A stretch of 64,000 bases of DNA from Octopus vulgaris (lineage: Eukaryota). The position numbers and the translations under genes are program-made. The notes under the pieces were generated by a model. It had not been told where the DNA came from, ran no database searches, and saw nothing but the letters and a program-made list of their open reading frames with translations. The first letter of the stretch is position 1; each line of letters opens with the position of its first letter. Where the stretch lies: the NCBI GenBank assembly GCA_951406725.2, contig OX597827.1, positions 74,524,001 to 74,588,000 of the forward strand, in the 5' to 3' direction. Of this stretch, positions 667 through 63,589 are shown piece by piece.

Positions 667-795
667 AATGTCTCAGCGGTAAATTTGGTCGTAATTGCAC
701 AAAGTCCTGTCATTGTTCCGAAACATGTAACCACACCAATGGATTATGTCCAGGAGTGTGTGATGCAGGATACACCGGGTACAACTGCCAAGAAG
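667..795 (+). CDS. EGF exon A1 (129 nt, phase 1-1)
   Basis: tttcag|...|gttatt; [43 protein letters not shown], 8 Cys. Confidence 0.9.

Positions 796-63589: not shown

What the first reader, a model, noticed from the sequence alone, without database searches (positions are those of the whole stretch)
667..63589. MEGF10/Draper-like EGF-array receptor joined to a tandem tyrosine phosphatase
Seen: 10 intact 8-Cys EGF exons splice directly to TM, juxtamembrane, an intact D1 ([18 protein letters not shown]) and D2. Established: vertebrate receptor PTP ectodomains are mostly Ig/FN3/MAM/carbonic-anhydrase types, while this EGF type is typical of CED-1/Draper/MEGF10/SREC engulfment and scavenger receptors that lack a catalytic domain. 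Inference: a lineage-specific recognition receptor with its own phosphatase output. Similar architectures probably exist in mollusc annotations under names like PTP kappa/mu-like, so the function may be newer than the architecture.
Basis: partly seen in the sequence, partly recalled or inferred. Interest (0 to 1): 0.75.

Follow-up and report, generated by a model that had tools for sequence, protein, structure and literature searches.

The report
Octopus lectin-EGF receptor tyrosine phosphatase
This is a real, spliced octopus gene for a cell-surface protein with a stalk of EGF repeats outside and a predicted active tyrosine phosphatase inside; it belongs to a mollusc-wide receptor type already reported at parasite-resistance loci in snails, and it likely helps immune cells sense foreign surfaces.

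Summary
Twenty-six exons (667-63589, + strand), all AG..GT, give a stop-free 999-aa frame: ten 8-Cys EGF exons, TM, juxtamembrane, a D1 with all catalytic motifs and a degenerate D2 that runs off the window. TM-to-D2 is 561/561 identical to an annotated Octopus vulgaris protein whose model adds an F-type-lectin (galactose/fucose-binding) domain upstream of the window. Contigs of putative RNA runs splice TM to juxtamembrane in 4 of 4 runs; two join different EGF exons (the tenth, the fifth) to the TM exon, so EGF-to-TM splicing is real and stalk length varies. The architecture is not new: it is pan-molluscan and in print for Biomphalaria as MEGF/GBD receptor PTPs at schistosome-resistance loci (PMC12297450, PMC13712769). 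It is no MEGF10/Draper member (no EMI domain in full-length paralogs) and no PTPRA/E orthologue (AU p=0.009). The octopus part is a young paralog cluster with duplicated and decayed EGF exons, a drifting lectin pocket, and some paralog models with damaged D1 motifs. Likely an immune surface-sensing phosphatase; function untested. Verdict: new member of a known kind, interest 0.4.

The parts
667..795 (+). EGF exon A1 (129 nt, 8 Cys, phase 1-1)
   Evidence: used in annotated P0007
1057..1191 (+). EGF exon B1 (135 nt)
3945..4073 (+). EGF exon A2; with B2 a tandem duplicate of the A1-B1 block (275-1568 vs 3555-4879, 86% identical)
4338..4472 (+). EGF exon B2
12059..12187 (+). decayed A-type EGF pseudo-exon (2 of 8 Cys left, in-frame stop, no GT donor)
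15123..15257 (+). EGF exon B3; joined directly to the TM exon in one RNA contig and in the annotation
18565..18693 (+). EGF exon A4
18928..19062 (+). EGF exon B4; block 14868-16292 vs 18679-20101 is 95% identical
26511..26636 (+). EGF exon A5 (126 nt, pyrimidine-poor acceptor)
26882..27016 (+). EGF exon B5
29705..29833 (+). EGF exon A6; joined to the TM exon in one RNA contig
33993..34086 (+). transmembrane exon
   Evidence: hydropathy 3.3
36817..36911 (+). juxtamembrane exon 1 (basic stop-transfer stretch)
39896..40035 (+). juxtamembrane exon 2 with YEEI and YVNM tyrosine motifs
40686..40773 (+). PTP D1 exon with KNRY
42308..42381 (+). PTP D1 exon (YINANF)
43164..43188 (+). PTP D1 25-nt exon (YIACQ); four residues shorter than PTPRA here
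45894..45991 (+). PTP D1 exon (DFWRMIW)
47059..47181 (+). PTP D1 exon (KC..YWP)
48914..49071 (+). PTP D1 exon with WPD loop and catalytic VHC
50036..50171 (+). PTP D1 exon (SAGVGRTG ... MVQ)
53018..53167 (+). end of D1 and D1-D2 linker
53379..53433 (+). PTP D2 exon a
56565..56605 (+). PTP D2 exon b
58402..58524 (+). PTP D2 exon c
59543..59674 (+). PTP D2 exon d
63438..63589 (+). PTP D2 exon e (WAD in place of WPD); the gene continues beyond the window

Best explanation
The window holds most of a spliced octopus gene for a single-pass receptor with a variable stalk of 8-Cys EGF repeats, a predicted active phosphatase D1 and a predicted dead D2, which likely works as an immune surface sensor: an F-type-lectin domain at the tip (annotated upstream of the window) would bind glycans on microbes, parasites or cells and so switch or reposition the phosphatase. 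Shown: exon structure, EGF-to-TM splicing, two stalk variants, motif content, paralog cluster, family breadth. Inferred: D1 removes phosphotyrosine from signalling proteins of blood cells and so sets the threshold of kinase-driven receptors such as the Draper-like proteins; D2 and the YxN tyrosines of the juxtamembrane and tail serve as regulatory and adaptor (Grb2-type) docking sites; exon skipping and exon duplication change how far the lectin reaches and whether the phosphatase is let into or kept out of tight cell contacts, as known for CD45 isoforms (recalled). Identity as a lectin/MEGF receptor PTP about 0.95; immune role about 0.6.
For: Gene model. Splicing: TM-to-JM1 joint GT..AG in 4 of 4 runs; one contig (X13) carries an A6 end (29 of 30 letters) before TM and the JM2 start after JM1, another (X19) a B3 end (28 of 28). 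Lectin domain: Pfam PF22633/PF00754 in P0007; best solved match of a paralog ectodomain is the F-type lectin FBP32, E=6e-16. Catalytic motifs align to PTPRA; HCSAG[VI]GR[TS]G in 68 of 78 and WPD in 73 of 78 relatives with EGF next to the TM. YxN in the juxtamembrane of 62 of 78 (19.7 expected from shuffles) and in the last 12 residues of 54 of 78 (11.2 expected). Lectin domain diverges faster than D1 among paralogs, e.g. 71% vs 92%. Same architecture lies at two snail schistosome-resistance loci, with EGF gain and loss between haplotypes (PMC12297450, passages; PMC13712769, passages and one section). Oyster circulating agranulocytes over-express more than 40 receptor PTPs beside dozens of Draper-like genes (PMC13070813, passages; whether these are EGF-bearing is not stated gene by gene).
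Against: No tissue, ligand, substrate or activity data for this gene. The lectin domain is outside the window and known only from an annotation whose first 35 residues look wrong (they match intron sequence on the minus strand). The fucose triad (HX24RXDX4R/K, PMC5712786) is incomplete in all 11 domains matched by the pattern: none has the Asp, and P0007 has Gln at the first Arg, so fucose binding may be lost or changed. No positive selection among EGF exon copies: dN/dS about 0.5-1.3, 0.8 for the youngest A-B pair. The snail link is genetic association only, and orthology of octopus and snail/bivalve D1 is not shown (monophyly not recovered, only not rejected, AU p=0.345). The runs are 'RNA?' by the tool's guess, no DNA run was laid as control, and JM2-to-D1 junctions were not seen directly.
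Confidence: 0.6

Rival explanations
1. It is a cell-adhesion or wiring receptor: the EGF stalk and lectin-like tip bind self proteins or matrix, and the phosphatase tunes contacts in nervous tissue, skin or suckers, as LAR/PTP69D and MEGF10 do (recalled).
For: Tandem D1/D2 closest in solved structures to PTPRA, PTPRE, PTPRS and LAR; a cephalopod+LAR-like clade is not rejected (AU p=0.097); the fucose triad is degenerate.
Against: No Ig or FN3 domains in the octopus proteins; young, copy-variable paralogs with damaged members fit immune receptors better than conserved wiring genes; the LAR/R4 group forms a 98/89 clade without the cephalopod rows.
Confidence: 0.2
2. It is a self/non-self or gamete recognition receptor in which polymorphic lectin tips read conspecific glycans.
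For: F-type lectin domains serve gamete recognition in oyster bindins (PMC5712786, passage); paralog lectin domains differ at the triad positions.
Against: No gonad data; relatives map to parasite-resistance loci in snails.
Confidence: 0.08
3. The receptor has an ordinary housekeeping signalling role, and the EGF-number variation and paralog cluster are neutral by-products of unequal crossing-over between symmetrical phase-1 exons.
For: Exon and flanking intron divergence are similar in the duplicated blocks (9-14% vs 11-12%; 4-6% vs 4%); one exon copy has decayed; the 98% paralog could be an uncollapsed haplotype.
Against: All 80 Cys of ten exons are kept, dN/dS is mostly below 1, and skipping is seen in transcripts; parallel expansions in snails coincide with resistance loci.
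Confidence: 0.12

Closest known systems
Biomphalaria MEGF/GBD receptor-like PTPs (SudRes1, PMC12297450; 'scavenger class F-like subgroup 1C', PMC13712769)
   Same: Galactose/fucolectin-type domain, multiple EGF repeats, one TM, tandem PTP domains; clustered recent paralogs; EGF number varies.
   Different: Octopus copies form their own D1 clade (100/99); orthology to the snail genes not shown (no Biomphalaria sequence was in my trees); exon skipping seen here; antistasin neighbours not testable in this window.
MEGF10/Draper/CED-1 and SCARF1/2 (SREC) receptors
   Same: 43-45-residue, 8-Cys EGF repeat; weak match of one exon to SCARF1 (E=0.77) and of a paralog ectodomain to Tie2 EGFs (E=2e-10).
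   Different: No EMI domain in full-length paralogs; F-type lectin at the tip; catalytic tandem PTP tail instead of NPxY/ITAM tail (defining features recalled).
Vertebrate tandem receptor PTPs R4 (PTPRA/E), R2B (K/M/T/U), R2A (LAR)
   Same: Active D1 plus inactive D2; about 40% D1 identity; C-terminal YxN tyrosine.
   Different: Different ectodomain; D1 about equally far from T, mu, kappa, alpha and gamma (221-206 bits); PTPRA/E orthology rejected. Database names such as 'PTP T-like/kappa-like' are best-hit labels.
EGF+FN3(+Ig) receptor PTPs of echinoderms, chelicerates and amphioxus
   Same: EGF repeats outside, tandem PTP inside.
   Different: All 7 non-mollusc proteins scanned carry FN3 between EGF and TM; 10 of 11 mollusc proteins scanned have none.
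CD45/PTPRC (functional analogy, recalled)
   Same: Ectodomain length set by exon skipping; active D1, dead D2.
   Different: Unrelated ectodomain; lower D1-D2 similarity than R4/LAR; blood-cell expression not shown here.

Membership tests
Molluscan lectin/MEGF receptor PTPs (as defined in PMC12297450, PMC13712769) | multiple EGF repeats outside | tested here: met
   ten 8-Cys exons
Molluscan lectin/MEGF receptor PTPs | galactose-binding/fucolectin domain outside | tested here: met
   PF22633 E=1e-11 in P0007, which is 561/561 identical to the window from TM on and shares three EGF exons exactly; the domain itself lies outside the window
Molluscan lectin/MEGF receptor PTPs | single TM and tandem PTP domains | tested here: met
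Molluscan lectin/MEGF receptor PTPs | common ancestry of D1 with gastropod/bivalve/chiton members | tested here: inconclusive
   not one clade in the best tree; AU p=0.345
Active classical PTP domain (D1) | KNRY, WPD, HCX5R, Q-loop | tested here: met
   alignment to PTPRA; enzyme activity not testable
Active classical PTP domain (D2) | WPD and HCX5R | tested here: not met
   WAD in exon 63438-63589; no CX5R in P0007 D2
MEGF10/Draper/CED-1 | N-terminal EMI domain (feature recalled) | tested here: not met
   no EMI hit in Pfam scans of P0007, P0004, P0017, P0021, P0023, P0024, P0139, P0141; the window's own N-terminus is outside the window
MEGF10/Draper/CED-1 | non-catalytic tail with NPxY and YxxL/ITAM (feature recalled) | tested here: not met
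   juxtamembrane tyrosines are YAEA, YEEI, YVNM, YVSE, followed by PTP domains
MEGF10/Draper/CED-1 | 8-Cys EGF repeat array | tested here: met
   only weak database scores
Canonical F-type lectin | cation motif h2DGx | tested here: met
   AVDGN in all 11 domains matched (motif from PMC5712786)
Canonical F-type lectin | fucose motif HX24RXDX4(R/K) | tested here: not met
   P0007 has H, Q, no D, R; paralogs vary H/S/Q and R/Q
R4 (PTPRA/PTPRE) orthologue | D1 clade with vertebrate PTPRA/E; short unfolded ectodomain | tested here: not met
   AU p=0.009; long Cys-rich ectodomain
R2A (LAR) orthologue | 3 Ig + FN3 ectodomain | tested here: not met
   D1 clade test alone inconclusive (p=0.097)
R2B (PTPRK/M/T/U) orthologue | MAM-Ig-FN3 ectodomain | tested here: not met
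   no MAM, Ig or FN3 hit; no R2B sequence was available for the tree

The most novel reading that the evidence does not exclude
The octopus cluster is a paired-receptor system: near-identical lectin-EGF ectodomains are coupled either to an intact phosphatase (this gene) or to crippled or absent ones (paralog models with KNLH, KNQY or KNRD for KNRY, WPDHD, missing catalytic exons, or no PTP at all), while exon skipping sets the stalk length. Octopus blood cells would thus have a CD45-like, length-tuned phosphatase with its own decoys and a fast-changing glycan reader, built independently of vertebrates.
Probability: 0.2. Interest if true: 0.72.

Novelty: new member of a known kind. Interest (0 to 1): 0.4.

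Why it matters
The family is large across molluscs, hidden under misleading database names, and twice linked genetically to parasite resistance in snails, yet no member has a known ligand or substrate in the papers I read. An octopus member with demonstrable stalk-length isoforms and a cluster of intact and apparently damaged paralogs gives a tractable case for asking how an invertebrate couples glycan recognition directly to tyrosine dephosphorylation, which bears on cephalopod aquaculture health and on snail-schistosome compatibility. The architecture itself would not surprise a mollusc immunologist after 2025.

Tried and rejected
No whole genome is held for this window, so paralog positions come only from shared contig lengths and neighbouring accession numbers. 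Reads could be laid on one 3-kb stretch only; junctions between EGF exons and inside D1 stay untested by reads. No run is on record as RNA; I draw nothing on tissue or level from contig depth. Positive selection on EGF exons: tested, not found. A hidden micro-exon to fill the four-residue gap before YIACQ: none needed, all octopus paralogs share the gap. Further exons in the introns: 29 of 1060 tblastn HSPs lay outside the model, 26 on the decayed exon, one weak hit beside it and two on intron sequence matching the doubtful first residues of P0007. Rfam and tRNA scans: nothing. One structure job was sent in the wrong reading frame and its model was discarded; no other fold was run. A grouping of the cephalopod clade with two fast teleost R3-like rows (88/65) is taken as likely long-branch attraction. 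Literature: nine searches; none listed a paper describing this family in cephalopods (0 papers; 1 oyster genome paper, listing only); an O. vulgaris haemocyte single-cell methods paper has no mention in text or its one held supplement; PMC6017057 and PMC5336234 passages were not informative. Subscription papers (e.g. sea-urchin and phosphatome surveys, recalled) were not searchable, so older descriptions may exist. The earlier-findings search returned nothing.

Full report
Observation. A six-frame motif scan found ten Cys-rich EGF segments and PTP motifs, all on the + strand. Refining the boundaries gave 26 exons from 667 to 63589; 26 of 26 have AG..GT ends, and they join to 999 codons without a stop. 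The ten EGF exons come in two types (A, 129/126 nt; B, 135 nt) in the order A B A B B A B A B A; each has 8 Cys at fixed spacing and starts and ends in phase 1, so any of them can be skipped or duplicated in frame. A TM exon (33993-34086), two juxtamembrane exons, eight D1 exons (88, 74, 25, 98, 123, 158, 136, 150 nt) and five D2 exons follow. The signal peptide and N-terminus lie upstream of the window and the end of D2 downstream. An eleventh A-type exon at about 12059-12187 has decayed. Blocks holding A1-B1/A2-B2 (86% identical) and B3/B4 (95%) show recent tandem duplication of exons with their introns.

Identity. One D1 exon found six proteins among seven candidates, all Octopus. From the TM to the window's end the model is 561/561 identical to O. 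vulgaris CAI9733311.1 (P0007), 98.9% to O. sinensis XP_036365302.1 (P0022), 98.4% to a second O. vulgaris model (P0010) and about 91% to P0004/P0017. The window is therefore from an octopus of the vulgaris/sinensis group. P0007 uses only A1, B2 and B3 and carries, upstream, a galactose-binding/F5-8 type C domain; the closest solved structure of a paralog ectodomain is the F-type lectin FBP32, then an EGF-repeat protein and Tie2. The first 35 residues of P0007 are doubtful: residues 6-35 match window intron sequence on the minus strand twice; paralogs P0004, P0021, P0023 and P0140 instead begin with a hydrophobic leader and a Cys-rich region.

Splicing. Laying contigs of four runs (RNA by the tool's guess) on 33960-37000 gave the 2730-nt GT..AG joint from TM to JM1 in 4 of 4 runs. 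In 2 of 4 the contig reached further 5': in X13 a 1078-nt contig, without a mismatch in TM or JM1, carries the end of exon A6 (29 of 30 letters) before the TM and the start of JM2 after JM1; in X19 (a different species label) the contig carries the end of B3 (28 of 28; B4 would be 27 of 28), as in the annotation. The other two contigs ended at the TM exon's start. So EGF exons are spliced to the TM, and at least two stalk lengths exist; O. sinensis RefSeq isoforms of a paralog also differ in EGF number (6-10). A transcript with all ten exons, and the JM2-to-D1 junctions, were not seen directly; the latter rest on annotated models. Only 24 of 65 loose ends were shown, and no DNA run was laid as control.

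Catalysis and motifs. D1 aligns to PTPRA with [17 protein letters not shown] and both Q-loop glutamines; it has a four-residue deletion shared by the octopus paralogs. D2 has WAD and no CX5R. The juxtamembrane holds YEEI and YVNM, and P0007 ends in YSNF; these resemble Src-SH2 and Grb2-SH2 sites (recalled). Among 126 of 137 PTP-bearing representatives that could be classified (11 dropped for lack of a clear TM), 78 have EGF next to the TM; 62 of these have a juxtamembrane YxN (19.7 expected) against 6 of 26 without EGF (4.2 expected), and 54 a C-terminal YxN (11.2 expected; 18 of 26 in the no-EGF group). The lectin's cation motif is kept but the fucose motif given in PMC5712786 (passages) is incomplete in all 11 domains that the pattern matched out of 22 proteins tried.

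Family. An ectodomain search gave 48 proteins among 385 candidates; 27 of 48 carry a PTP domain: 8 octopus, 18 from chiton, bivalves and a snail, 1 unnamed. Of the best 150 representatives at 50% clustering, 137 have a PTP domain, 103 have EGF before it and 40 also a lectin-like domain. Twenty of the 150, picked by me for variety, were named: 13 molluscs (Sepia, Octopus, Haliotis, Solemya, Potamilus, Liolophura, Gigantopelta) and 7 others (sea stars, brittle star, scorpion, spider, amphioxus). All 7 others have FN3 between EGF and TM; 10 of 11 mollusc proteins scanned have none. In a 49-row D1 tree the eight cephalopod rows form a 100/99 clade and the five close Octopus rows a 99/97 clade; R4, LAR-like and Ig/FN3 rows form a 98/89 clade without them; deeper forks are open. 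AU tests: cephalopod+other mollusc EGF-PTPs not rejected (p=0.345), cephalopod+PTPRA/E rejected (p=0.009), cephalopod+LAR-like not rejected (p=0.097). LAR-like labels come from Pfam architecture of unnamed proteins; one oyster row's species label was my assumption; R2B, R5, CD45 and Biomphalaria sequences were not in the tree.

Paralogs. O. vulgaris models P0007, P0010, P0004/P0011, P0139, P0141 and P0153 are all reported from an 84.7-Mb contig, three with neighbouring accessions; tandem arrangement is inferred, and the 98% copy could be a haplotype. Lectin domains are 62-96% identical to P0007's where D1 is 77-99.6%. Several paralog models lack KNRY, alter the WPD loop, lack catalytic exons or have no PTP; these are predictions and may be incomplete. 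EGF exon copies show dN/dS of about 0.5-1.3 and diverge about as much as their introns, so positive selection is not shown.

What is in print. Pennance et al. 2025 (PMC12297450; passages) describe 17 MEGF/GBD receptor PTP genes in Biomphalaria sudanica, three in the SudRes1 schistosome-resistance region, with EGF loss in a resistant haplotype; the text has no mention of cephalopods. PMC13712769 (passages and one section) reports four such genes ('subgroup 1C') at a B. glabrata resistance peak. PMC13070813 (passages) finds many receptor PTPs and Draper-like genes up in oyster agranulocytes. Supplements of these three were not read and may list further members. My nine searches listed no cephalopod description.

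Verdict. The gene is real and correctly read. It is an octopus member of a described molluscan receptor type, not a MEGF10/Draper protein and not an orthologue of a characterised vertebrate PTP. The most likely function is glycan-guided control of tyrosine phosphorylation in immune cells (0.6), with adhesion/wiring (0.2), neutral variation on a housekeeping receptor (0.12) and gamete/self recognition (0.08) as rivals. What is added here is evidence for stalk-length isoforms and a young cluster with intact and apparently damaged phosphatases. Interest 0.4.

Noticed in passing
window 12059-12187 (+): Decayed A-type EGF exon; a similar decayed sequence opens the paralog model P0011, so the decay predates a duplication of the block.
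   Followed up: partly
window 15987-16076 and 19796-19885 (-): Intron sequence identical to residues 6-35 of the annotated protein P0007; suggests a false first exon in the annotation and an inverted copy of this block upstream of the gene.
   Followed up: partly
window 56547-56565 (+): The upstream acceptor used by paralogs for D2 exon b reads AT instead of AG here, leaving only the acceptor 9 nt downstream; one annotated isoform (P0001) skips D2 exon a and ends out of frame, giving a D1-only protein.
   Followed up: partly
window 34817-35691, 28297-29296: Mariner-type transposase remnants (Pfam Transposase_1 E=9e-10) in two introns, in opposite orientation.
   Followed up: partly
window 61364-61783 (+): Fragment of a non-LTR retrotransposon (weak zf-RVT hit, E=0.017) in a D2 intron.
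   Followed up: partly
window 16203-16394/17036-17227 and 16864-17035/17228-17398: A perfect 192-nt direct repeat and a 99% 172-nt inverted repeat in the intron between B3 and A4; recent local rearrangement or assembly artefact.
   Followed up: no
proteins P0255, P0261, P0275, P0213, P0268: Other invertebrate tandem PTPs with unusual ectodomains (Sushi+ricin lectin, HYR+Ig, SUEL+SRCR+F5/8, fibrinogen+EGF+FN3, Kringle+EGF+FN3): receptor PTPs are repeatedly fitted with recognition domains.
   Followed up: no
proteins P0186, P0207, P0225, P0228, P0234: Echinoderm and chelicerate PTPs with Tie-like (Ig/EGF/FN3) ectodomains; possible ancestral form of the FN3-less mollusc type.
   Followed up: partly
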